Of a stretch of 64,000 nucleotides of DNA, positions 6,084-64,000 are shown in pieces. The translations under genes were made by a program, and so were the position numbers. Every line of letters starts with the position of its first letter. The stretch's first letter is position 1. Under the pieces are notes generated by a model that did no database searches, was not told where the DNA came from, and saw nothing but the letters and a program-made list of their open reading frames with translations. The stretch comes from Eledone cirrhosa (lineage: Eukaryota), in assembly GCA_964016885.1 (NCBI GenBank), contig OZ024740.1:139314001-139378000 (forward strand). The letters are read 5' to 3'.

Positions 6084-6248
6084 ATACACGGGGAGAGAGT
6101 GGGGGTGCGTACAGTTAGACATAGTGATGGATAGATAGATGTGAGATTGTGAATGAAGCGAGATCAAAATGTTTGCTGAGCCGGTAAAAGGGTCTTTTTC
6201 CTTTTCTTTTTAATATAAATAAAATCAGTTAATCTCTAACAGCTGTTT

Positions 6249-33743: not shown

Positions 33744-38027
<4,284 letters not shown>

Positions 38028-41429: not shown

Positions 41430-43289
<1,860 letters not shown>

Positions 43290-45482
43290 TTCAGAGCATT
43301 TATTCCAATTTCTAATTTCTGCCGGACCGGCAACCGCTCTTTCAAACCAGTTCCTGTACACAGCTAAGTATTCTATAAGTCTCTAGCTGTGTCATTCTCG
43401 ATAGAAGCACTGGATATGTAGTCCTGAAGATTTCTAATAAGAATGAAAACGCGTAGATTACTTCCCTTGCTTTTATCGAGAATCTAATTGTAATACGTGA
43501 CGTATTCTATTCTATAGCGATTAGGTCCTCAAAATGTTTATTATAAACATACAGAATATTTTCGAATATTCTATGTCTATATTCACATATATATCGCTAT
43601 TTCAGAGCATTTATTCCAATTTCTAATTTCTGCCGGACCGGCAACCGCTCTTTCAAACCAGTTCCTGTACACAGCTAAGTATTCTATAAGTCTCTAGCTG
43701 TGTCATTCTCGATAGAAGCACTGGATATGTAGTCCTGAAGATTTCTAATAAGAATGAAACGCGTAGATTACTTCCCTTGCTTTTATCGAGAATCTAATTG
43801 TAATACGTGACGTATTCTATTCTATAGCGATTAGGTCCTCAAAATGTTTATTATAAACATACAGAATATTTTCGAATATTCTATGTCTATATTCACATAT
43901 ATATCGCTATTTCAGAGCATTTATTCCAATTTCTAATTTCTGCCGGACCGGCAACCGCTCTTTCAAACCAGTTCCTGTACACAGCTAAGTATTCTATAAG
44001 TCTCTAGCTGTGTCATTCTCGATAGAAGCACTGGATATGTAGTCCTGAAGATTTCTAATAAGAATGAAACGCGTAGATTACTTCCCTTGCTTTTATCGAG
44101 AATCTAATTGTAATACGTGACGTATTCTATTCTATAGCGATTAGGTCCTCAAAATGTTTATTATAAACATACAGAATATTTTCGAATATTCTATGTCTAT
44201 ATTCACATATATATCGCTATTTCAGAGCATTTATTCCAATTTCTAATTTCTGCCGGACCGGCAACCGCTCTTTCAAACCAGTTCCTGTACACAGCTAAGT
44301 ATTCTATAAGTCTCTAGCTGTGTCATTCTCGATAGAAGCACTGGATATGTAGTCCTGAAGATTTCTAATAAGAATGAAACGCGTAGATTACTTCCCTTGC
44401 TTTTATCGAGAATCTAATTGTAATACGTGACGTATTCTATTCTATAGCGATTAGGTCCTCAAAATGTTTATTATAAACATACAGAATATTTTCGAATATC
44501 CTATGTCTATATTCACATATATATCGCTATTTCAGAGCATTTATTCCAATTTCTAATTTCTGCCGGACCGGCAACCGCTCTTTCAAACCAGTTCCTGTAC
44601 ACAGCTAAGTATTCTATAAGTCTCTAGCTGTGTCATTCTCGATAGAAGCACTGGATATGTAGTCCTGAAGATTTCTAATAAGAATGAAACGCGTAGATTA
44701 CTTCCCTTGCTTTTATCGAGAATCTAATTGTAATACGTGACGTATTCTATTCTATAGCGATTAGGTCCTCAAAATGTTTATTATAAACATACAGAATATT
44801 TTCGAATATTCTATGTCTATATTCACATATATATCGCTATTTCAGAGCATTTATTCCAATTTCTAATTTCTGCCGAACCGGCAACCGCTCTTTCAAACCA
44901 GTTCCTGTACACAGCTAAGTATTCTATAAGTCTCTAGCTGTGTCATTCTCGATAGAAGCACTGGATATGTAGTCCTGAAGATTTCTAATAAGAATGAAAC
45001 GCGTAGATTACTTCCCTTGCTTTTATCGAGAATCTAATTGTAATACGTGACGTATTCTATTCTATAGCGATTAGGTCCTCAAAATGTTTATTATAAACAT
45101 ACAGAATATTTTCGAATATTCTATGTCTATATTCACATATATATCGCTATTTCAGAGCATTTATTCCAATTTCTAATTTCTGCCGGACCGGCAACCGCTC
45201 TTTCAAACCAGTTCCTGTACACAGCTAAGTATTCTATAAGTCTCTAGCTGTGTCATTCTCGATAGAAGCACTGGATATGTAGTCCTGAAGATTTCTAATA
45301 AGAATGAAACGCGTAGATTACTTCCCTTGCTTTTATCGAGAATCTAATTGTAATACGTGACGTATTCTATTCTATAGCGATTAGGTCCTCAAAATGTTTA
45401 TTATAAACATACAGAATATTTTCGAATATTCTATGTCTATATTCACATATATATCGCTATTTCAGAGCATTTATTCCAATTT
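43290..45482 (+). mobile_element. Tandem array of 7 x 310 bp (+22 bp) hammerhead-containing units; retrozyme-like
   Basis: TTCAGAGCAT recurs at 43290, 43601, 43911, 44221, 44531, 44841, 45151, 45461; only three differences noticed among copies; no ORF. Confidence 0.9.
43729..43771 (+). ncRNA. Minimal type I hammerhead ribozyme (also 43418-43461 with an extra A, 44039-44081, 44349-44391, 44659-44701, 44969-45011, 45279-45321)
   Basis: GUAGUC-CUGAAGA-UUUCU AAUA AGAAU-GAAA-CGCG-UA^GAUUAC; 6-bp stem I with one G-U; palindromic ACGCGU stem III; predicted cleavage after A43765. Confidence 0.88.
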
Positions 45483-46539
<1,057 letters not shown>

Positions 46540-47980: not shown

Positions 47981-48106
47981 ATTCACATTGCTGACAATTG
48001 TTTCTCTGAACTGGTAGGTCTAGAGATCGCTATCCGCCTGTTTTTGCGTCAATAAATCACCAATACTTTGTTATAAACCAGTCTATTCATCAGAGCATGC
48101 GAGAAT
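47981..48106 (-). ncRNA. Type I hammerhead ribozyme with extended stem II, intact core
   Basis: Minus strand: AUUCUCGCAUGCU-CUGAUGA-AUAGACUGGU...ACCAGUUCAGA-GAAA-CAAUUG-UC^AGCAAUGUGAAU. Confidence 0.8.
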
Positions 48107-49870
48107 GAAGGATATACACAGGCATGGTTTCTATATATAGTAGTGTCATTAAATCAGAACAATAATAACAATACTCAAATAAATTAGCTAGATAGTAAAT
48201 AGTTAAAACAATCACAACATCAATCTAAGTAAGAAATAGAGTATACTGATGACTTTAGCATGTAAAACGAGTTGATACGAAACAGATGTGTATATATATA
48301 TATAGGAAAAAGTATGACCCCGACGGCAGAGCTCAAGCCGTTTCGATGGCTATTTCAGTCCAGAAATAGCCGTCGGAACGGCTTGAGCTCTGCCGTCGGG
48401 GTCATACTATGGCTATGGTCCATCTGGTTCCTTACCACAATTCCTTCGTTATATATATATATATATATATATAGGAAAAGTCAATAAGAAAAGAAAAACG
48501 CGTGAGAACACTACAATGCCGCATAACCAACCTTCCGTCTTCACATAGAAGAAAAAGCCACCTGCAACTTGGTAACGTGAATCATGCTTTTGCTAATGGT
48601 TTCGAGTGTCGCACACATATCCTCTTGGCAATCCCATATCTATGATAGGACAGCTCCAGGTAGAGAAGAAGACAGAGCAGTACTAGGAAGTTAGTTTCTT
48701 AATCGACCCGAAATTATAACTGACAAATTTAACCTGGATGTATTTTGACTTCAGAGTGCACAGAACCTGCGTAAACACCACAATCTATTCTATCCGACAC
48801 TCTAACGATACTATCGATTGATCACATACATGCACATGCATGTTCACAAAACATGTTTCGATTGATCTGTGTTCTGGTTACTGATTATCGGCGAGTTCTA
48901 TTACGACCAAAGCATATCAGGGATTTTAATCATTCTTCTTCTTCGCCCACTTATTCCTATGAGGGTCGTGAGGACATCCTCAAACATGAGGTCTCGGACA
49001 CGCAACATTTGTGTGTCCATCCGACACCTCCCAGGACAGGTTGCAAGTCCATCACCTGTTTCTGCGGCATGAAATTGAGACTGCAATATATTTTTCGAAC
49101 AGGCCCCTCTACGTAAATATGTGGTTATTATGTGTATATTATGTTACTTACATGCAGACACACATATGCATACATACAAACATCCATACACATACATACA
49201 CAAAAAAAAAAAACACATACACATATACAAACGCCTATATATGACCGTTTTATATACATATCTGTGTGTTATATACATATATAAATCGTTCATATTTCAG
49301 TTAATGATAAGTTTAAATTTAAATAAGGCATTTATACACGAGAAAATACGACGGGGTAAAAGTGACCACTGCGTACAGTATCGAACCGTGTATGTCTGTG
49401 TGTGCGTGCATGTCTCTGTATACATATGTGTCTGCGTTGATGCTGTCTTTGGATCTGTGCGTTGTTGAGATTAAAATGCAAACAGAGAGAGCATAGTGAA
49501 AGCGTAAGCTAGTCTGTGGGAAACTCAAAAAGACAGACAGGGATAAACAGAGATAGTCAGATTGACGGACAGAAATAATACAGAGAAAGATATGACGCCG
49601 AGATATGCATACTCAGGATATACAATGAATTAGCAAGGAACAGATTAACAGTTAGCTTGCTAACTCAAGCAGCGTGCATAGATATCAAGCAACAAACGTT
49701 ATGCTGTGTCCTTGTAGCATATATATAAGCATATATGTATGTCTGTATACGCTATACGCACATACACATATATGTGCATAAATAAATAAATGCACATACA
49801 CATACACACACACACACATGCACACATATATATATTATATATATGTATAAATATATATATATATATGTAT

Positions 49871-50864: not shown

Positions 50865-50899
<35 letters not shown>

Positions 50900-51756
50900 A
50901 AAGTTTGTCTTTCATCAGTGATCTTCCAACCATCATAGGCATTTCATCGCTTTAAAGACCATATACCTCCGGTTGGTGCGAGCAACGGCTAAAAAAAGTC
51001 GTTGGGACACGTAAATAAATGGGACACGAGTCCCAAATTTCTATGAATTTTAAATTCATAGAAATTTGGGACTTGTCTCCTTCTTCCTCACTTTCTGTTG
51101 CTTCACCATTTTGTTTGTTTACACTCGCGTCCCATTTATTTACGTGTCCCAACGACTTTTTTTAGCCGTTGCTCGCACCAACCAGAGGTATATGGTCTTT
51201 AAAGCAATGAAATGCCTATGATGGTTGGAAGATCACTGATGAAGGACAATTTTTTTCATATGTAACCCATTTGCAACTCCGCAGCGCCCTTATTATTATA
51301 TATATATATATATATAGTGAGAGGCGTCTGATTTATTTGCAGCAGTAACATCCCTGTTGTTCACTTGTGATACACAATTGTTTTACGGGGATTTCTTGTT
51401 AGTGGAACAAGATGTATGTGATGTGGGAAAAGGTTAGTTCACTCTCAAAAATAAGAGGGACGACGGAAGACAACTGGCAGGTGCGGGTGAAGGAGAATAA
51501 GAGAGGGAGAGCGAGAGTGGGAGAGTGAGGGAGAGAAAGTGAGAGTAAAAATGGAACATATGGTACTCTAGATAGAGTGTGGAGATAAGAGAGGGGTGGG
51601 AGCCCCGTGGTTATCCACAGATAGAGAAGCGGGGACGAACCAAAAAATTGCGAGAAAATACAAAGTATTTCTCTGATATATACATATACCCATATATATA
51701 TATATAGATACATGTGTATACGAATATATAATACACGCACACACACATATACATAC

Positions 51757-51807
<51 letters not shown>

Positions 51808-51941
51808 TGGTTACACAACAGTTAGTTCATCATACCGAGAACAATTCTATGGTGAACTAACTGTTGTGTAACCACTTCTACCTAACTCGTCCCATGGACT
51901 GAGTGCTCTACCACTACATATATTACCTTCCAGTTTTCTAC

Positions 51942-51984
<43 letters not shown>

Positions 51985-52169
51985 GATAAATCTACCAAGA
52001 GTTTACGGTAGTGTCCAATCCGTATGAAGAACTCAATGTATTCCGGATATCATGGAAAGAAGAGATGTAATGAAAAATCACTTTCGGTGAAAGATAAACG
52101 GTATACAGAGTCAAGATAAAATATTAAACAAATAATGAATAAACAATTCCTTATATTAAACAAAAAAAG

Positions 52170-52323
52170 TTCATTATTTAACGATCGTTTCTAGGATATA
52201 TATGTGTTAGAGTTGGCATGCATATTCAACAGATCTATGTACAAAATTATACAAAATTATACAAACTATCAAGATTAAATATACATACCAACACATATAT
52301 ACGCCGTCTTCAGAAATAATGAA
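52170..52323 (-). ncRNA. Type I hammerhead ribozyme with ~115-nt stem II region (PLE pseudo-LTR)
   Basis: UUCAUUAUUU-CUGAAGA-CGGCGUAUAUAUGUGUUGG...CUAACACAUAUAUAUCCUA-GAAA-CGAUCG-UU^AAAUAAUGAA; perfect 10-bp stem I. Confidence 0.82.
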
Positions 52324-52960
52324 ATATATTTATTGATAATAACAACAATTCAAACTTTCAGGTCCGTTTGGGAACAAAATTGACCAATGAAAATACAAAA
52401 GGTTTAATGCAGTTCGGTGTGTGTATATACATGTAACAACCCTTACACATATTTTACAAAAATGTATGCACAACCTGTATACGCATATAAAAAGGATGGA
52501 TGCAAATACAAAATTTCAAGGTTAATGTCTCTGTAAGTTTATAATGCACAGATAAGATGCGTATAGATACATAAATATGAAATAAGTGTATACACATATT
52601 TTCATATTAACACATATCCGTACAATCACACATACACGCGCGTATATGCATAAACATACACATAAACTACGAACATACAAACACACACACACCCCCACTC
52701 ACATATATATATGTGGATATAAAATCCTAAGCACATGGATATTAATTCACTCACATAAACACTGGCACACACATTTAGATAAAGATACAGAAATTAGGTG
52801 GGAGGGGGGGGGAGAGGTCAGTATTCAACGGTTTGGGCTGACTGCTTAATATAGATGTATCTATAAACTAAGAAAATAAAAAATAATAAATAATAAATAA
52901 ACATTAAAAAGGAAAGAAAAGAAAAAGAAAAAAGAAGAAAGAAAAAAGAAATATATCAAG

Positions 52961-53004
<44 letters not shown>

Positions 53005-53156
53005 CACACACACACACACATATATATACACATACACATATACAAACACATACATACATATACACACATCCACACTTAGAGCATACATACACACACATAT
53101 ATAAACATATACATATACACACATACATACATATACACACATACATATAAATACAC

Positions 53157-53205
<49 letters not shown>

Positions 53206-53489
53206 CACTCATACATACACATATAATCACACATACTATATAGACACACATATATATACACACATACACAACCATATACATACACTTACATACATATATA
53301 CATACAGATATACACATACATACCTATATATACACACAAATACATACAGACATATATACATACATACAGACAAATACTTACGCATCTATATATCGGTATA
53401 TACATACAAACACCACTACACTCTCACACAACTCAGACATACAAAGAAAAAGGTATATACCCATACACATATACATATACAAATAGAGA

Positions 53490-53577
<88 letters not shown>

Positions 53578-53793
53578 CACACATACACACATACACATAC
53601 ATATACATACATACATGTACACACACATAGATATATATACACACATACACACATACACATACATATATAGTCATACACACACATACACCTACACGAACAT
53701 ACACATACACATATACAAAGATATATATACACACACACACACACATACACACACACACATATATATAAAAAAAATAAAGGTATATATATAAAA

Positions 53794-53836
<43 letters not shown>

Positions 53837-54169
53837 CATACACATACATACACACATACATAGACATATATGTACATACATACATATACATAGATACATA
53901 CACACACATACATACATATATATATATACACACATAGACATATACATACATACACACACAACATACATACACACATATATACTCATACATAGAATTAGAT
54001 ATATAATCATACATACATACGCACTTACATATACTCATATATACAAATACAAACGCATCCATATATGCGTATATACATAGAAACACCACTACACCCTCAC
54101 CCAACTCAGACATACAAAGAAAAAGGCATATACATATACATATATACACGCATTAATAGAGATATATAT

Positions 54170-54209
<40 letters not shown>

Positions 54210-54436
54210 ACTTATATACATATACCCACACACACATACAACCATAAATACACATACAAACACCCACATATATATATATATATACACATATATATATATA
54301 TATACACACACATAAAAAACAGACATGCACATATATATATTTTTTTACACATATATATACATATACACACCCTCACATATACACACATACACATAAGTTA
54401 TATTATAATAATAAATAATATATACATACACATACA

Positions 54437-54492
<56 letters not shown>

Positions 54493-54755
54493 CGAATATA
54501 GACATATATACACACATAGATATATATACATATATATATACACATACATATACACACACACACATATACACATTCACATATATATGTGTGTGCACACACA
54601 CATATATATATACATACACACATATACACATAAACACATATATGTGTATACATGCACACACACACATATATCCACATAGATACGAAGATAGACATATAAA
54701 TAGAGAGACATACATATATAAACACACACACATATACATACATACATACACACAC

Positions 54756-54814
<59 letters not shown>

Positions 54815-56143
54815 TACACACATACAGACATACACATACACATACATATACACATGCATATATACACATATACACATACATACACACATATATATATACA
54901 CACACAATCTTACATTCTTATTTGCATGCGCATATATGTATTTTTATATTCAGATATAAATACGCAAATATATATACACCTACCTACATATATATTCATA
55001 CATACACGCTTACAAACACAGATGATAATAGTATGGGGGAAAGGGGGGGGGGGTGGAGAAGGGGATTATAGTAAATATATGTTTCAAGAAACATAGAATA
55101 TTAACCGTATCTAGATCCAATGTATGTTTTTACATAGTATCAGTGTTAGGAAATACAATAAACAAGAAATAAGGCAAAATCTATGCATCTCAAAATAAAT
55201 AAGTATACCATTAATTATATGTTAACTAAACTAAAGATAGTTAACATATTGATTTCTAAGGTGTAAATTAGTTAGTTTTATAATATTTGAAGCAGAGTTT
55301 TGAAGTTAAATAGTAGTAGAGTATTAATTATAGTATAACTAAATTAAAGTTAATAACTTTATGGTATCAATATTAGGAAATGAATTTAGTAATAGGGAAA
55401 AAACAAATAAAGTATTACATCGGTAGTAGAATATAAATTATAGGTTAATTAAATTAAAAATTATATATTTATTTCTATAGTATATGTTAATTAGGTATAT
55501 AATAAATAAAACAGATATTGTATTTTATCAATAGCAGAATATAATTATATGCAAATAGAAATCAAAATTAATACATATACATATACATATACATACACAT
55601 ATATATATACATATATATACATATATATACACATATATACACATATATATACGCACACACATACACATACACATATACATATACATATTTTTTCAAAAAT
55701 TGCAAAGAATATATTAGCTAGGTATAAATCCAAAACACATCCCATTCTATGATTACATGACATTCTGCAATTCGTCTGTATAAGGATATTAATTTTAAGC
55801 CAATTAAATTAAATTTTTAGGTTGATTAAAATTAAAACCAAATTATAAATATATTTCTAAAATGTATATTAATTAGGTCTATAATACTAAAAATTATTTC
55901 TCTGTCATTGGATACACGATATTTTGTTATATTTTATCTGTAAAAGAATTATAATAAACGGTTTAAATAAATTAAAATTAATCTATAAATTAAATTACTA
56001 AGTATATATTAGTAATATTTAAAGGTTTTACACAATTTATGATTACATAATATTTTATATTCTCATCTGTAATAGAATTTTAATTAAATTAAATTTATAG
56101 GTTAACTAACATTTAAATTAAATTAATTTCTAAAATAATGTTA

Positions 56144-58585
56144 TTAATTAGGTTTATAATATTTAAATGTTTTTTTTAGTTTATGATTACACGATATAAT
56201 TAATTCCTGTCGTTTATTTAATAGGATATCCCTAGATTTCATTATTTCAAATAGTTCTTGGGAACATAATCTACATTCATTTCTATTATTTTGATAAGGG
56301 GTGGCTCTTTTGAGCACACTCCAGGTCAAATCATATTCTATATTCTTATTTTTATAACTATTGATTTTTTCTGCTAGAGATGTTGTATTAGCCAGTGCGG
56401 CATTTTTAAAACTATGCTTGTGGGTATTAAACCTTGTCTTAAAATTGTTAGAGGTAGCTCCTATATATGAGCAAATAGAATCTTTAGTTTTAACATTACA
56501 TTTATAGACTATGTTGTTAACAAGACAATTCCCTTTTAATGGGCAGTTTGCTTTGTTTCTACAGTTACAACCTTTCGTTAATTCTGTATTTGAGGAGATA
56601 TTATGGTTAATTTGATGTACTAGTGGTATACTTATGGTTTTCTTACATTTATATGCATTATAGGCACTTATATTTTGTTTTATGTTATTTGTTGTAGAGT
56701 ATGAGAATTTAACTGTAGACCTATTTAAGATTTGATGGTATTTGTGGTTTGGCGGGAAGTTTTTCTCTAGGATATAAAAAATTTTTTTAGCAATATTATC
56801 CTTAATTTGTAAATTAAATGGAGCATTATACCAAGTAACCCGTCTATTACGGTTTCTATGTTGTTTATTATTTTTATTATTTTTATAGGTTGTATCGTGA
56901 TTTTTACTAGGAGGATTAATGTTAATGATCTCACCACAACCATTTTTAGTTATATTTGTAGATTTAGGTGTTTTATCCTTTTTATTAGGAGTTTTATTAT
57001 TAATATTTATTAGAGTTGTATGATAAGTAGTTTTTTGAGAGTTACTATACTTTATATTAGAAGATTTGGTATTTTGGGGTATAGTGTGGGTGGCATTTAG
57101 GTGTGTACTTTTCATTTGGTGTTTGTTGGTAATATTAGGTTGTATGCTTTCAGTATTTTTAGTAGAAGGTATATATTCTAATCTATTTTTGTGGCCACTT
57201 CTATCTAGAGCTTCGTTATAGAAGGTCGCATTTTTATCAAATACATCTTGGTTAGAAGAAAGGTTAGAAATTCTAAGTGATATATTATATGCAAGGTTTT
57301 TAAGGATAGATTTAGGGTGATTAGATTGTGAGTGTATGTAATGTAAGTTTTGGTTTGGTTTATGGTAAGGTTGGTAGATACCCGTAGCTAAATCTAAAGT
57401 TATATCTAGGAAATTTACTACTTTACTTGTTTTTTCAAAAGTAATATTAAGATTATAATAGTCTTTAAGGAAAGTTCTAATATGTTTTTTGTTTTTTTCA
57501 ATTTCTGAAAGGCTAAGGTTGTTAGAAAGAAGAAGACAGTCATCACGATATAAACCACCTTTGAGGTGGGGAAAGGAGGCATTTATGTTGAAAAGGAGAA
57601 AGAGGCCCACAAGATCAGTAATTTGGGCGGAATCGCTTGAACCCATAGTAATATCAAAAAGATTACTATATGTGTTTCTGGTCCAGTATTCATTCTGAAA
57701 TTCAATAAGTGTTAGTCTAGCATGTGTAATAATATTAATGTCATCCAAAGTTAAGTTAGATCTATTTTTAGCAAATATCAATGCTTTGTTCAGGAGTATA
57801 GGTGATATAGAAGAATAGTAATTATCTATATCAAATTGTAGAAATGAAGCAGAAGATTTACATCTAATATTTTTAAACCAGTTAATTACCTGGGAGGTGT
57901 TTTCCCAGAGTGGTAAAATAACGTGTTTTCTTATTTGTGGGATGACTCTATCCAAAATTTTTTTGCTAATTATTCCAATATCTGATTTGGAGGGACATAT
58001 AAGTCTAATAGAAGGATTTGAGTTAAAGTTTGATTTATGATCCTTCAGGTTGAAGTGTGGTCTTTTCAATGCCAAAGGTTCAGTTCTATCTTCAATGTTT
58101 AGTTTTTTTACTATGTTGTGTGTTTTGTTGTTGATGTTGGTGAGTGACGCATTATTAGATTTTTTATAATTTTTTCTGAGTTCTTTATATATGAACTCAT
58201 TATAATGTTTAATATCCATATGATACAAGTTACCAGTTTTGTCCGAGTGGACATGGATTTTTTTAGACTTTTTTAGGTCCAATAGGGTAGAATCAAGGTC
58301 CTTTTGAAAGACGGATTTATACTTTTTAAATTTGAGGTGTTTAATTAAATTAAAAAGGTCTTTCTCGAAGTCTTCAAGTAAAAAGTTGTGTGGTGGATTC
58401 TTGTAAGTATTGAAATCATACATATATTTCCGATCTGCTTGTTTAGATTTTCTATCGAAATGGTAGGCTCTCCATCTAACCCTTCTGATAAAATTATTAG
58501 TTTTTTGAATCATAAGGAGTAAGAAGTCATCCTTAGAAGGTATTGGTATGTTTTTTAAAGAGGTTCCTAAATATTGTTTTTCCAT
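56144..58585 (-). CDS. Penelope-like element reverse transcriptase + C-terminal GIY-YIG endonuclease (~813 aa from the first ATG)
   Basis: SDKTG, RT motifs LQFDIDNYYSSI, ITMGSSDS, GLYRDD, VNFLDITL; linker CNCRNKANCPLKGNC; IVYKC...YIGAT..FKTRFNTH...CRLC; no stops. Confidence 0.93.
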   Translation of the reverse strand: MEKQYLGTSLKNIPIPSKDDFLLLMIQKTNNFIRRVRWRAYHFDRKSKQADRKYMYDFNTYKNPPHNFLLEDFEKDLFNLIKHLKFKKYKSVFQKDLDSTLLDLKKSKKIHVHSDKTGNLYHMDIKHYNEFIYKELRKNYKKSNNASLTNINNKTHNIVKKLNIEDRTEPLALKRPHFNLKDHKSNFNSNPSIRLICPSKSDIGIISKKILDRVIPQIRKHVILPLWENTSQVINWFKNIRCKSSASFLQFDIDNYYSSISPILLNKALIFAKNRSNLTLDDINIITHARLTLIEFQNEYWTRNTYSNLFDITMGSSDSAQITDLVGLFLLFNINASFPHLKGGLYRDDCLLLSNNLSLSEIEKNKKHIRTFLKDYYNLNITFEKTSKVVNFLDITLDLATGIYQPYHKPNQNLHYIHSQSNHPKSILKNLAYNISLRISNLSSNQDVFDKNATFYNEALDRSGHKNRLEYIPSTKNTESIQPNITNKHQMKSTHLNATHTIPQNTKSSNIKYSNSQKTTYHTTLININNKTPNKKDKTPKSTNITKNGCGEIININPPSKNHDTTYKNNKNNKQHRNRNRRVTWYNAPFNLQIKDNIAKKIFYILEKNFPPNHKYHQILNRSTVKFSYSTTNNIKQNISAYNAYKCKKTISIPLVHQINHNISSNTELTKGCNCRNKANCPLKGNCLVNNIVYKCNVKTKDSICSYIGATSNNFKTRFNTHKHSFKNAALANTTSLAEKINSYKNKNIEYDLTWSVLKRATPYQNNRNECRLCSQELFEIMKSRDILLNKRQELIISCNHKLKKTFKYYKPN

Positions 58586-58926
58586 TGTGATATGGATGAT
58601 GGACAATTGAAAGAGCTCAACTAAATGTATATGGGTTTATAAAATCATACATATATATGTATATACATAAATATAAAATTAATACACACATACAGTACAA
58701 AAATACGAATATTTCCGTGAAAATAGGAGCAAAATTATGTAGATAAATCTACCAAGAGTTTACGGTAGTGTCCAATCCGTATGAAGAACTCAATGTAATC
58801 CGGATATCATGGAAAGAAGAGATGCAATGAAAAATCACTTTCGGTGAAAGATAAACGGTATACAGAGTCAAGATAAAATATTAAACAAATAATGAATAAA
58901 CAATTCCTTATATTAAACAAAAAAAG

Positions 58927-59080
58927 TTCATTATTTAACGATCGTTTCTAGGATATATATGTGTTAGAGTTGGCATGCATATTCAACAGATCTATGTACA
59001 AAATTATACAAAATTATACAAACTATCAAGATTAAATATACATACCAACACATATATACGCCGTCTTCAGAAATAATGAA
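58927..59080 (-). ncRNA. Type I hammerhead ribozyme, second copy, ~350 nt upstream of the copy-1 ATG
   Basis: Identical to 52170-52323; predicted cleavage between 58937 and 58936. Confidence 0.82.
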
Positions 59081-59715
59081 ATATATTTATTGATAATAAC
59101 AACAATTCAAACTTTCAGGTCCGTTTGGGAACAAAATTGACCAATGAAAATACAAAAGGTTTAATGCAGTTCGGTGTGTGTATATACATGTAACAACCCT
59201 TACACATATTTTACAAAAATGTATGCACAACCTGTATACGCATATAAAAAGGATGGATGCAAATACAAAATTTCAAGGTTAATGTCTCTGTAAGTTTATA
59301 ATGCACAGATAAGATGCGTATAGATACATAAATATGAAATAAGTGTATACACATATTTTCATATTAACACATATCCGTACAATCACACATACACGCGCGT
59401 ATATGCATAAACATACACATAAACTACGAACATACAAACACACACACACCCCCACTCACATATATATATGTGGATATAAAATCCTAAGCACATGGATATT
59501 AATTCACTCACATAAACACTGGCACACACATTTAGATAAAGATACAGAAATTAGGTGGGAGGGGGGGAGAGGTCAGTATTCAACGGTTTGGGCTGACTGC
59601 TTAATATAGATGTATCTATAAACTAAGAAAATAAAAAATAATAAATAATAAATAAACATTAAAAAGGAAAGAAAAGAAAAAGAAAAAAGAAGAAAGAAAA
59701 AAGAAATATATCAAG

Positions 59716-59763
<48 letters not shown>

Positions 59764-59917
59764 CACACACACACACACACATATATATACACATACACAT
59801 ATACAAACACATACATACATATACACACATCCACACTTAGAGCATACATACACACACATATATAAACATATACATATACACACATACATACATATACACA
59901 CATACATATAAATACAC

Positions 59918-59974
<57 letters not shown>

Positions 59975-60261
59975 CACTCATACATACACATATAATCACA
60001 CATACTATATAGACACACATATATATACACACATACACAACCATATACATACACTTACATACATATATACATACAGATATACACATACATACCTATATAT
60101 ATACACAAATACATACAGACATATATACATACATACAGACAAATACTTACGCATCTATATATCGGTATATACATACAAACACCACTACACTCTCACACAA
60201 CTCAGACATACAAAGAAAAAGGTATATACCCATACACATATACATATACAAATAGAGAAAC

Positions 60262-60338
<77 letters not shown>

Positions 60339-60554
60339 CACACATACACACATACACATACATATACATACATACATGTACACACACATAGATATATATA
60401 CACACATACACACATACACATACATATATAGTCATACACACACATACACCTACACGAACATACACATACACATATACAAAGATATATATACACACACACA
60501 CACACATACACACACACACATATATATAAAAAAAATAAAGATATATATATAAAA

Positions 60555-60619
<65 letters not shown>

Positions 60620-60948
60620 CACATACATACACACATACATAGACATATATGTACATACATACATATACATAGATACATACACACACATACATACATATAT
60701 ATATATACACACATAGACATATACATACATACACACACAACATACATACACACATATATACTCATACATAGAATTAGATATATAATCATACATACATACG
60801 CACTTACATATACTCATATATACAAATACAAACGCATCCATATATGCGTATATACATAGAAACACCACTACACCCTCACCCAACTCAGACATACAAAGAA
60901 AAAGGCATATACATATACATATATACACGCATTAATAGAGATATATAT

Positions 60949-60988
<40 letters not shown>

Positions 60989-61227
60989 ACTTATATACAT
61001 ATACCCACACACACATACAACCATAAATACACATACAAACACCCACATATATATATATATATACACATATATATATATATATACACACACATAAAAAACA
61101 GACATGCACATATATATATTTTTTTACACATATATATACACATATATATACATATACACACCCTCACATATACACACATACACATAAGTTATATTATAAT
61201 AATAAATAATATATATATACACATACA

Positions 61228-61282
<55 letters not shown>

Positions 61283-61544
61283 GAATATAGACATATATAC
61301 ACACACAGATATATATACATATATATATACACATACATATACACACACACACATATACACATTCACATATATATGTGTTTGCACACACACATATATATAT
61401 ACATACACACATATACACATAAACACATATATGTGTATACATGCACACACACACATATATCCACATAGATACGAAGATAGACATATAAATAGAGAGACAT
61501 ACATATATAAACACACACACATATACATACATACATACACACAC

Positions 61545-61615
<71 letters not shown>

Positions 61616-62942
61616 TACACACATACAGACATACACATACACATACATATACACATGCATATATACACATATACACATACATACACACATATATATATAC
61701 ACACACAATCTTACATTCTTATTTGCATGCGCATATATGTATTTTTATATTCAGATATAAATACGCAAATATATATACACCTACCTACATATATATTCAT
61801 ACATACACGCTTACAAACACAGATGATAATAGTATGGGGGAAAGGGGGGGGTTGGAGAAGGGGATTATAGTAAATATATGTTTCAAGAAACATAGAATAT
61901 TAACCGTATCTAGATCCAATGTATGTTTTTACATAGTATCAGTGTTAGGAAATACAATAAACAAGAAATAAGGCAAAATCTATGCATCTCAAAATAAATA
62001 AGTATACCATTAATTATATGTTAACTAAACTAAAGATAGTTAACATATTGATTTCTAAGGTGTAAATTAGTTAGTTTTATAATATTTGAAGCAGAGTTTT
62101 GAAGTTAAATAGTAGTAGAGTATTAATTATAGTATAACTAAATTAAAGTTAATAACTTTATGGTATCAATATTAGGAAATGAATTTAGTAATAGGGAAAA
62201 AACAAATAAAGTATTACATCGGTAGTAGAATATAAATTATAGGTTAATTAAATTAAAAATTATATATTTATTTCTATAGTATATGTTAATTAGGTATATA
62301 ATAAATAAAACAGATATTGTATTTTATCAATAGCAGAATATAATTATATGCAAATAGAAATCAAAATTAATACATATACATATACATATACATACACATA
62401 TATATATACATATATATACATATATATACACATATATACACATATATATACGCACACACATACACATACACATATATATATACATATTTTTTCAAAAATT
62501 GCAAAGAATATATTAACTAGGTATAAATCCAAAACACATCCCATTCTATGATTACATGACATTCTGCAATTCGTCTGTATAAGGATATTAATTTTAAGCC
62601 AATTAAATTAAATTTTTAGGTTGATTAAAATTAAAACCAAATTATAAATATATTTCTAAAATGTATATTAATTAGGTCTATAATACTAAAAATTATTTCT
62701 CTGTCATTGGATACACGATATTTTGTTATATTTTATCTGTAAAAGAATTATAATAAAAGGTTTAAATAAATTAAAATTAATCTATAAATTAAATTACTAA
62801 GTATATATTAGTAATATTTAAAGGTTTTACACAATTTATGATTACATAATATTTTATATTCTCATCTGTAATAGAATTTTAATTAAATTAAATTTATAGG
62901 TTAACTAACATTTAAATTAAATTAATTTCTAAAATAATGTTA

Positions 62943-64000
62943 TTAATTAGGTTTATAATATTTAAATGTTTTTTTTAGTTTATGATTACACGATATAATT
63001 AATTCCTGTCGTTTATTTAATAGGATATCCCTAGATTTCATTATTTCAAATAGTTCTTGGGAACATAATCTACATTCATTTCTATTATTTTGATAAGGGG
63101 TGGCTCTTTTGAGCACACTCCAGGTCAAATCATATTCTATATTCTTATTTTTATAACTATTGATTTTTTCTGCTAGAGATGTTGTATTAGCCAGTGCGGC
63201 ATTTTTAAAACTATGCTTGTGGGTATTAAACCTTGTCTTAAAATTGTTAGAGGTAGCTCCTATATATGAGCAAATAGAATCTTTAGTTTTAACATTACAT
63301 TTATAGACTATGTTGTTAACAAGACAATTCCCTTTTAATGGGCAGTTTGCTTTGTTTCTACAGTTACAACCTTTCGTTAATTCTGTATTTGAGGAGATAT
63401 TATGGTTAATTTGATGTACTAGTGGTATACTTATGGTTTTCTTACATTTATATGCATTATAGGCACTTATATTTTGTTTTATGTTATTTGTTGTAGAGTA
63501 TGAGAATTTAACTGTAGACCTATTTAAGATTTGATGGTATTTGTGGTTTGGCGGGAAGTTTTTCTCTAGGATATAAAAAATTTTTTTAGCAATATTATCC
63601 TTAATTTGTAAATTAAATGGAGCATTATACCAAGTAACCCGTCTATTACGGTTTCTATGTTGTTTATTATTTTTATTATTTTTATAGGTTGTATCGTGAT
63701 TTTTACTAGGAGGATTAATGTTAATGATCTCACCACAACCATTTTTAGTTATATTTGTAGATTTAGGTGTTTTATCCTTTTTATTAGGAGTTTTATTATT
63801 AATATTTATTAGAGTTGTATGATAAGTAGTTTTTTGAGAGTTACTATACTTTATATTAGAAGATTTGGTATTTTGGGGTATAGTGTGGGTGGCATTTAGG
63901 TGTGTACTTTTCATTTGGTGTTTGTTGGTAATATTAGGTTGTATGCTTTCAGTATTTTTAGTAGAAGGTATATATTCTAATCTATTTTTGTGGCCACTTC
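62943..64000 (-). CDS. PLE RT/GIY-YIG protein, copy 2, C-terminal part (5' end outside the window)
   Basis: The 323-aa ORF track entry is identical to the C-terminus of the 56144 ORF, and the frame stays open to the window edge. Confidence 0.9.
   Translation of the reverse strand, partial: SGHKNRLEYIPSTKNTESIQPNITNKHQMKSTHLNATHTIPQNTKSSNIKYSNSQKTTYHTTLININNKTPNKKDKTPKSTNITKNGCGEIININPPSKNHDTTYKNNKNNKQHRNRNRRVTWYNAPFNLQIKDNIAKKIFYILEKNFPPNHKYHQILNRSTVKFSYSTTNNIKQNISAYNAYKCKKTISIPLVHQINHNISSNTELTKGCNCRNKANCPLKGNCLVNNIVYKCNVKTKDSICSYIGATSNNFKTRFNTHKHSFKNAALANTTSLAEKINSYKNKNIEYDLTWSVLKRATPYQNNRNECRLCSQELFEIMKSRDILLNKRQELIISCNHKLKKTFKYYKPN

What the first reader, a model, noticed from the sequence alone, without database searches (positions are those of the whole stretch)
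51979..64000. Young, intact tandem Penelope-like element with an unusually large ~6.76-kb unit
Two head-to-tail copies have an uninterrupted ORF, identical over the shared C-terminal part, and a handful of SNPs, so the element is potentially active. The ORF is 2.4 kb but the non-coding part is ~4.3 kb. The DKT motif, YRDD, CxCx5C linker and TA target resemble my recollection of the Hydra clade of C-terminal-EN PLEs; the clade assignment is unverified. Consecutive HHRs would release a unit-length RNA starting ~350 nt before the ATG.
Basis: partly seen in the sequence, partly recalled or inferred. Interest (0 to 1): 0.7.

Follow-up and report, generated by a model that had tools for sequence, protein, structure and literature searches.

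The report
Long-tailed Penelope retrotransposon, two RNA templates
This is one recent insertion of an abundant jumping gene of a known kind (Hydra-type Penelope) with an unusually long, repeat-filled tail, and the places where its copies stop suggest that short copies are likely made from a linear RNA and long tandem copies from a ribozyme-closed RNA circle, a route proposed before and now testable.

Summary
The tandem is real: 6,757-nt period, 14 SNPs. Only copy 1 is intact. Beyond the window, copy 2 is 5'-truncated (lacks aa 1-169) and joins a 1.3-kb inverted arm, the normal Penelope-like layout. The motifs fit the Hydra clade (no tree with reference clades was run). The long non-coding part is intrinsic: arrays elsewhere repeat at 6.05-6.9 kb, and the 3' UTR rises from 0.72 kb (older subfamily) to 3.1-4.1 kb (young). 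Thousands of insertions end in (TA)n at two fixed sites 137 nt apart. New here: copies rarely stop at the ribozyme cut site (about 0.6%) but stop often 141 nt upstream, at an initiator-like site. Arrays are near-clones of one local haplotype. Likely reading: short copies come from a linear transcript, long arrays from a unit-length RNA circle. No RNA data were found. Earlier scan notes on other DNA of this genome already reported two-ended priming and long microsatellite UTRs. Verdict: new variant of a known kind, with a testable mechanism.

The parts
51945..51981 (.). (TA)18 target tract at the left end; no unique target-site duplication could be discerned
51979..51982 (-). 3' end type A (unit position 1); the terminal TAT merges with the TA tract
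   Evidence: 5,939 exact (TA)n+A-end matches in the genome; loose (TA)n ends at the equivalent place 58736 in 554, 491 and 643 reads of three RAD runs
51979..52115 (-). 137-nt 'tail' between the two fixed 3' ends (30-40 bp in the literature read)
   Evidence: PMC8557442 section 6
52081..52093 (-). Small hairpin 23-35 nt beyond end B on the RNA. A like motif lies at 58712-58722, beyond end A, but RNAfold preferred another fold there
52116..52116 (-). 3' end type B (unit position 138); internal here, used by the inverted arm beyond the window
   Evidence: 1,885 exact matches
52170..52323 (-). Type I hammerhead: 10-bp stem I, CUGAAGA core, long stem II, short palindromic stem III, predicted cut between 52180 and 52179
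   Evidence: fold z = -5.9; stem I kept across 18 copies, with G-U changes and one both-sided change; no hammerhead family among the 150 of 180 Rfam rows shown
52320..52320 (-). '+1' site (unit position 342): fixed 5' end of many copies, in a TCA(+1)TT initiator-like context inside the 5' arm of stem I; inferred transcription start
52321..56143 (-). 3,823-nt 3' UTR
52964..54904 (.). Degenerate TA/CA microsatellite cargo (a second patch at 55571-55688); 13 (TA)>=6 tracts per unit; markers of a 670-nt internal duplication at about 53408-53453 and 54081-54126
56144..58585 (-). Single ORF, 813 aa: telomerase-like RT, about 95-aa disordered N/T/K-rich insert (477-572), CxCx5C linker, C-terminal GIY-YIG-type endonuclease
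58586..58738 (-). Unit 5' UTR between the tandem junction and the ATG; from +1 at 59077 the leader would be 492 nt with 10 short upstream ORFs
58739..64000 (-). Copy 2, a 5'-truncated pseudo-LTR that supplies the hammerhead (59080->58927, cut 58937|58936) and +1 (59077) upstream of ORF 1; it runs 878 nt beyond the window, then joins an inverted arm

Best explanation
This is one 14.2-kb insertion of a young, multi-thousand-copy Hydra-type Penelope-like retrotransposon (one intact 6.76-kb unit, a truncated upstream copy and an inverted arm, inside a TA tract), likely made by its own enzyme priming two DNA copies from the two ends of a cut and likely using two RNA forms as template. Inferred steps: (1) Transcription starts at +1 (59077) in the upstream pseudo-LTR. 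(2) The endonuclease cuts (TA)n, and each DNA end primes at site A or B with about 3 nt of TA microhomology. (3) On a linear RNA whose 5' hammerhead is uncut, copying runs off at +1 after 342 or 205 nt. This leaves ~0.55-kb foldbacks, or a free end that can jump to another RNA (SINE pieces joined at +1). (4) Read-through RNA with two hammerheads is cut to unit length and closed into a circle; copying the circle gives tandem arrays with no stop at +1 or at the cut site. (5) The 3' UTR grew stepwise by microsatellite expansion and internal duplication and is tolerated cargo. Confidence: about 0.93 for identity and intrinsic unit, about 0.5 for the two-template mechanism.
For: Ends: 19 of 26 B ends have a facing A end within 45 kb, 0 of 26 a facing B end, and 0 of 100 A ends a facing A end. 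+1 stop: 3,105 of 9,634 genomic matches do not continue; of the first 30, 24 are true breaks with varied junctions and 6 are SINE joins. Cut site: 607 of 8,907 differ, but 93 of the 100 listed are a T variant, and 23 of 27 inspected read through, so about 0.6% are true breaks. First pass 20 of 46 arms stop within 4 nt of +1, second pass 0 of 28, Fisher p = 1.9e-5; a DNA-structure or nicking cause should act on every pass. Arrays: within-region median 0.09% (56 pairs) against 1.24% between regions (679 pairs, minimum 0.31%); the largest is 41.5 kb with over five units. SINE pieces at +1 differ in length, carry 3-18-nt duplications, and differ between the two arms of one insertion (L140/L141). 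UTR ladder: 0.72 kb with no microsatellite at 84% ORF identity, 1.1 kb at 86-90%, 2.3-2.6 kb at 92-95%, 3.1-4.1 kb at 97-100%. An RT tree with 52-56% identical in-genome outgroups puts the short-UTR group basal, support 90. The circle route was proposed in PMC4209133, which also notes that short palindromic helix III favours dimeric cleavage.
Against: No RNA evidence of any kind; start site, cleavage and circles are all inferred. In vitro, a Poseidon PLE did not need ribozyme cleavage and used unprocessed RNA (PMC11167929). Arrays are not purely star-like: in C6, units B2/B4 and B3/B5 share alleles; in C1b the two first units share three alleles against the inner ones. A single monomer circle does not predict this without template switches, a dimer circle or later conversion. 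One old-subfamily copy has a SINE at a second-pass +1 (L214). First- and second-pass samples differ in selection: the latter are long, processive events of subfamilies that match a 28-mer, and some first-pass arms come from the same insertion. The SINE inserts at TAAT genome-wide (39 of 39 contexts TAAT or TAAC), so part of its affinity for +1 is sequence. A tree with distant outgroups rooted among long-UTR copies (partial and noisy rows), and sister Hydra families here also seem to have UTRs of 2 kb or more. There is no downstream promoter element at the usual distance (by eye; position recalled).
Confidence: 0.6

Rival explanations
1. No circle: long arms are copied from linear read-through RNA of multi-unit source arrays, or by repeated strand transfer across the terminal redundancy; arrays are then lengthened and homogenised in place by unequal crossing-over and gene conversion.
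For: Mosaic haplotypes within arrays; SINE joins show that copying can resume after +1; ribozyme cleavage dispensable in vitro for a Poseidon element.
Against: Copying cannot exceed the source length, yet arrays are rebuilt from different local haplotypes in at least nine regions. Transfer fails on 20 of 46 first passes but 0 of 28 later ones. The inverted arm carries the same private haplotype as the forward units.
Confidence: 0.3
2. The +1 boundary is not a transcription start but a cut or stall: the element's endonuclease cuts its own new DNA at ATT in stem I, or the new DNA folds back there.
For: A Poseidon endonuclease prefers 5'-ATT-3' and can nick its own pseudo-LTR; the site lies in a 10-bp self-complementary stem.
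Against: The stop is absent on second passes (0 of 28). It lies at the exit side of the structure. Some junctions show repeated re-copying up to exactly the same base (L144).
Confidence: 0.12
3. The microsatellite UTR is adaptive because it sows new (TA)n landing sites for the family.
For: Each unit carries 13 (TA)>=6 tracts; the youngest subfamilies have the longest UTRs.
Against: Tract density in the unit (1.9/kb) is below the flanks (3.7/kb) and the rest of the window (7.5/kb); 0 of 70 sampled ends lie inside the element's own UTR.
Confidence: 0.07
4. The tandem is an assembly artefact or a local duplication of host flank.
For: The window holds a 200-N gap and multi-kb TA runs elsewhere.
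Against: 14 SNPs and 10 indels between copies; the same UTR in arrays on four contigs; 302 exact tandem junctions; orderly A and B ends.
Confidence: 0.02

Closest known systems
Hydra clade of C-terminal EN+ Penelope-like elements (Craig et al. 2021, PMC8557442; sections 6 and 11 read whole, passages, supplement part 2 and search hits), e.g. Hydra-1_Obim
   Same: Single ORF, RT plus C-terminal GIY-YIG; RW[K/R], DKT, CxCx5C, CxxC and CxH around E and N; canonical hammerhead; (TA)n target; partial tandem with inverted truncated copy; tail at one end. By eye, colinear motif blocks with the printed N-terminal part of Hydra-1_Obim.
   Different: Unit 6.76 kb against 2.08-2.73 kb for complete families; 3.8-kb microsatellite-rich UTR; 137-nt tail; insert region of 130 aa against 32-43 in 66 of 72 homologues; hammerhead with a much longer stem II and a different sequence from Hydra-1_Obim, so a different family.
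Poseidon_Ac (PAc) of Anolis (Frangieh et al. 2024, PMC11167929; parts 1-2 of 4 read)
   Same: Two internal reverse-transcription start sites that define the tail; both strands cut and extended; template uncut at the ribozyme at priming.
   Different: Start sites here lie in the leader upstream of the ATG, not in the ORF; they are 137 nt apart; they share TA microhomology with the target; one A and one B end per insertion.
Penelope of Drosophila virilis (Schostak et al. 2008, PMC2377424; passages read)
   Same: Internal, initiator-type promoter within the pseudo-LTR; needs a more-than-unit copy to be transcribed.
   Different: Start site here is inferred from genomic 5' ends only; no intron or downstream promoter element shown.
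Metazoan non-LTR retrozymes (PMC7229834, passages; bioRxiv 10.64898/2026.07.22.740005, part 1 of 5) and the PLE circle hypothesis (PMC4209133, passages)
   Same: Type I hammerhead once per tandem unit; arrays proposed to come from circular RNA.
   Different: This element is autonomous and about 20 times longer; circles are shown for retrozymes but only proposed for PLEs in what I read.

Membership tests
Penelope-like elements (EN+) | Telomerase-like RT and GIY-YIG endonuclease in one ORF | tested here: met
   AlphaFold2 pLDDT 84.9; top five Foldseek hits are TERT structures; IVY 692-694 / YIG 707-709, R718, H722, E777, N790. Pfam gave no significant hit.
Penelope-like elements (EN+) | Partial tandem (pseudo-LTR), inverted 5'-truncated copy, tail at one end | tested here: met
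   definition
Hydra clade | RWK motif and DKG changed to DKT | tested here: met
   RWR 37-39 (conservative variant; RW[KR] in 55 of 73 rows) and DKT 115-117 (66 of 73)
Hydra clade | CxCX5C linker; CxxC and CxH flanking E and N | tested here: met
   C673-C675-C681; C771xxC774; C799xH801
Hydra clade | CCHH motif absent from the endonuclease | tested here: met
   No CxxC inside the GIY-YIG core; two cysteines lie there, widely spaced, and are not conserved in the alignment
Hydra clade | Canonical hammerhead; insertion into (TA)n | tested here: met
Hydra clade | Generally short (<3 kb) | tested here: not met
   6.76 kb; even the oldest subfamily seen has a 3.7-kb unit (L214). The paper gives this as descriptive ('generally'), not diagnostic.
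Hydra clade | Groups with Hydra references in an RT phylogeny | not tested
Naiad/Chlamys | N-terminal endonuclease, DKA, no canonical hammerhead | tested here: not met
   Endonuclease is C-terminal, DKT, hammerhead present
Penelope/Poseidon, Neptune, Nematis | DKG motif and CCHH in the endonuclease | tested here: not met
Active hammerhead ribozyme / circular RNA intermediate | Self-cleavage and circle formation | not testable with these tools
   No run on record as RNA was listed

The most novel reading that the evidence does not exclude
The insertions of this autonomous Penelope-like family record its replication cycle. Priming occurs on a capped linear RNA and gives a strong-stop product ending at the start site, where foreign RNAs (a SINE) can be captured. 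Multi-unit arrays of up to 41 kb are rolled from a ribozyme-cut, re-closed 6.7-kb protein-coding circle. This would be genomic evidence for the circular intermediate proposed for PLEs in 2014 and would give the hammerhead a role: making the template for tandem, transcription-competent copies.
Probability: 0.4. Interest if true: 0.75.

Novelty: new variant of a known kind. Interest (0 to 1): 0.52.

Why it matters
What the hammerhead does in Penelope-like elements, and how their tandems arise, is stated to be unclear (PMC8557442); an in vitro study found cleavage dispensable. This family has thousands of young insertions whose ends can be counted, and they give base-level predictions: a capped end at +1, a cut 141 nt downstream, a 6.7-kb circle, and two priming sites. 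It also shows a retrotransposon UTR growing fivefold by microsatellite gain while the family stays intact and spreading. The element class itself is known.

Tried and rejected
Pfam: no significant family. Rfam: only microsatellite-driven miRNA-type hits far below cut-off among the rows shown. Repeat finder swamped by simple repeats. Sequencing runs: no RNA holder listed, so expression, splicing of the UTR, start site and circles were not tested. RAD reads confirm the A end, but their begin/end peaks at 58974-58977 look like restriction sites, and the +1 site was not among the rows shown. Insertion polymorphism at this locus was not tested. Target seeding rejected. The idea that the ~0.55-kb foldbacks are one amplified MITE was rejected because junctions and subfamily variants differ among copies. 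My first model, one linear terminally redundant RNA for all products, was rejected by 0 of 28 second-pass stops. Of those 40 loci, 12 were not counted: 3 fetched on the wrong side, 1 with a deletion over the ribozyme, 8 ending earlier (one at 198, near the cut site). Two rows with long distances but little microsatellite (5,214 and 4,436 nt) were left out of the tree as probably interrupted, without checking. The first rooted tree was noisy and disagreed; it was redone. No daughter of this locus's haplotype was seen among the loci held. Literature searches found no report of a first-pass-only 5' stop or of a Hydra family this long; the library lacks most subscription papers and Repbase/Dfam were not searched. 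Supplements of the bioRxiv retrozyme preprint are closed and could list long PLEs.
Full report
Observation. The repeat has a period of 6,757 nt, with 14 substitutions in 5,207 columns and 10 indels in simple repeats. The ORF runs 58585->56144 on the minus strand, 813 aa. The window is G000:C1:139314001-139378000. The neighbouring stretch shows that copy 2 ends at unit position 6101 and joins an inverted arm (unit 1436->138) ending in (TA)n. Copy 2 lacks residues 1-169; its other 644 aa equal copy 1. The locus is therefore one intact unit, a pseudo-LTR and an inverted arm, 14.2 kb in all, the layout drawn for PLEs in PMC8557442.

Protein. A search gave 117 homologues, the best at 39% over the full length, none named. 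The alignment of 73 rows shows RWR, DKT, YRDD, CxCx5C, a GIY-YIG core without CxxC, and C-terminal CxxC and CxH. These are the Hydra diagnostics in section 11 of PMC8557442. The model has pLDDT 84.9 with a disordered insert at 477-572, and its top matches are telomerase RTs. By eye, motif blocks are colinear with the printed Hydra-1_Obim protein, but the ribozyme differs. No tree with named reference clades was run. dN/dS against four relatives is 0.10-0.23, and 11 of 14 ORFs found by an exact start anchor are full length.

The family. Forty scored hits to the ORF are 99-100% identical, from 3,982 candidates. Exact patterns give 5,939 A ends and 1,885 B ends in (TA)n and 302 tandem junctions, with reversed controls at 0. 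On C1 up to 80.8 Mb, 19 of 26 B ends face an A end, none faces a B end, and none of 100 A ends faces an A end. Three RAD runs show loose (TA)n ends at the A site. Contig pieces with few differences occur in runs of other coded organisms. Arrays repeat at 6.05-6.9 kb with nearly constant period in most arrays; the largest spans 41.5 kb. The long non-coding part is thus intrinsic.

The UTR. Distance from stop codon to +1 tracks ORF identity to this copy: 0.69-0.72 kb and no microsatellite at 84%; 1.1 kb at 86-90%; 2.3-2.6 kb at 92-95%; 3.1-4.1 kb with 1.1-1.9 kb microsatellite at 97-100%, apart from one internally deleted 2.8-kb unit. Two outlying rows were dropped from the tree unchecked. The short-UTR copies differ from the query copy by 4-8%, so they spread earlier; one has a full unit of 3.7 kb. 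An RT tree with in-genome outgroups places them basal with support 90; an earlier noisy tree with distant outgroups disagreed. Growth is therefore likely, not certain. A 670-nt internal duplication is visible. The cargo does not enrich targets: 1.9 TA tracts per kb against 3.7-7.5 in host DNA, and 0 of 70 ends lie in the element's own UTR.

Ribozyme and 5' ends. The hammerhead folds with z = -5.9 and keeps stem I across 18 copies, with few both-sided changes. If cut linear RNA were the template, copies should end at the cut site. They rarely do: 607 of 8,907 matches differ there, 93 of the 100 listed are a T variant, and 23 of 27 inspected read through, about 0.6% true breaks by my estimate. 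At unit position 342 (52320/59077), 3,105 of 9,634 matches do not continue; 24 of the first 30 are true breaks with varied joins and 6 are SINE joins. The site reads TCA(+1)TT, like an initiator (consensus recalled); Penelope of D. virilis has an internal initiator-type promoter. I infer a transcription start.

First versus later passes. Of young arms reaching +1 straight from an A or B end, 20 of 46 stop within 4 nt; after a full unit, 0 of 28 do (p = 1.9e-5; 12 of 40 loci not counted). A cut or stall caused by the sequence should act on every pass, and a linear +1-initiated monomer should stop on the second. Long products therefore likely come from a template with no end at +1. Units within a region differ by a median 0.09% against 1.24% between regions, and inverted arms share the local haplotype, so arrays are rebuilt from one haplotype at or near each insertion. 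A unit-length circle closed at the cut site explains both, as proposed in PMC4209133. Against a single monomer circle: shared allele splits in C6 (B2/B4, B3/B5), C1b and C1f, and one old copy with a SINE at a second-pass +1. Multi-unit read-through with later homogenisation remains a serious rival, the more so as a Poseidon element did not need cleavage in vitro.

SINE joins. In older subfamilies a SINE-like piece (tRNA-type head judged by eye, not searched) sits exactly at +1, after which the element resumes, with duplications of 3-18 nt in seven cases where the resumption point was found. The two arms of one insertion carry the same variant cut differently, and some copies carry two in a row. 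This suggests a free cDNA end at +1 that can jump, though the SINE favours TAAT everywhere.

Comparison and verdict. The element works like, and on motifs belongs to, the Hydra clade; it fails only the descriptive size range. Two internal start sites and a tail are known from PAc. Earlier notes of this scan on other DNA of this genome reported two-ended priming, twin hairpins, long microsatellite UTRs and circle-like retrozyme arrays; none retrieved mentions the first-pass-only stop, the UTR ladder or the SINE joins, and none lies near this window or matched its sequence. Literature searches did not show them either; the octopus repeat paper gave only class counts in the passages read. No RNA run was listed, so every RNA step is inferred. 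New variant of a known kind; interest 0.52.

Noticed in passing
L108, L109, L111, L135, L139, L202, L205, L210, L211, L214, L219, L224, L227 at the +1 site; L012: A SINE-like piece is joined exactly at +1 in many older copies, sometimes twice in a row; in L012 it follows the hammerhead core of what looks like another family. It may be captured during PLE reverse transcription.
   Followed up: partly
window 50895-51260: A foldback element with a hammerhead-core motif near each end, starting in a TA tract; probably the mini form of another PLE family.
   Followed up: no
window 51807-51945 and L011 from about 3207 onward: Both flanks of the insertion are other small inverted-repeat elements abutting the same TA tract; a relative of the right-hand one also flanks the C1:278.64 Mb insertion.
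   Followed up: no
window 47993-48093 (minus) and 48246-48292 (plus): Two further hammerhead-like motifs of other families, the second ending at a TA tract.
   Followed up: no
window about 34000-38000, 41700-43000, 45400-46500; N gap 35935-36134: Multi-kb almost pure AT microsatellite fields, one containing a 200-N assembly gap.
   Followed up: no
L263-L276: At least four other Hydra-like families (52-56% RT identity) with long ORFs; one has its hammerhead 2.0-2.3 kb after the stop in three copies, so long UTRs may be common in this genome.
   Followed up: partly
L095, L180, L295 and C1:278643436; unit position about 189-190: A minor stop or slip site at the U-tract just 3' of the ribozyme stem; arms also end repeatedly at unit positions about 49-71.
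   Followed up: no
L015-L018 and L176 (C6 array): Alternating haplotypes (units 2 and 4 alike, 3 and 5 alike) could reflect a dimer circle, two alternating templates or a later block duplication.
   Followed up: partly
window 56870-57157 (aa 477-572): Disordered N/T/K-rich insert between thumb and linker, about 95 aa longer than in most homologues.
   Followed up: partly
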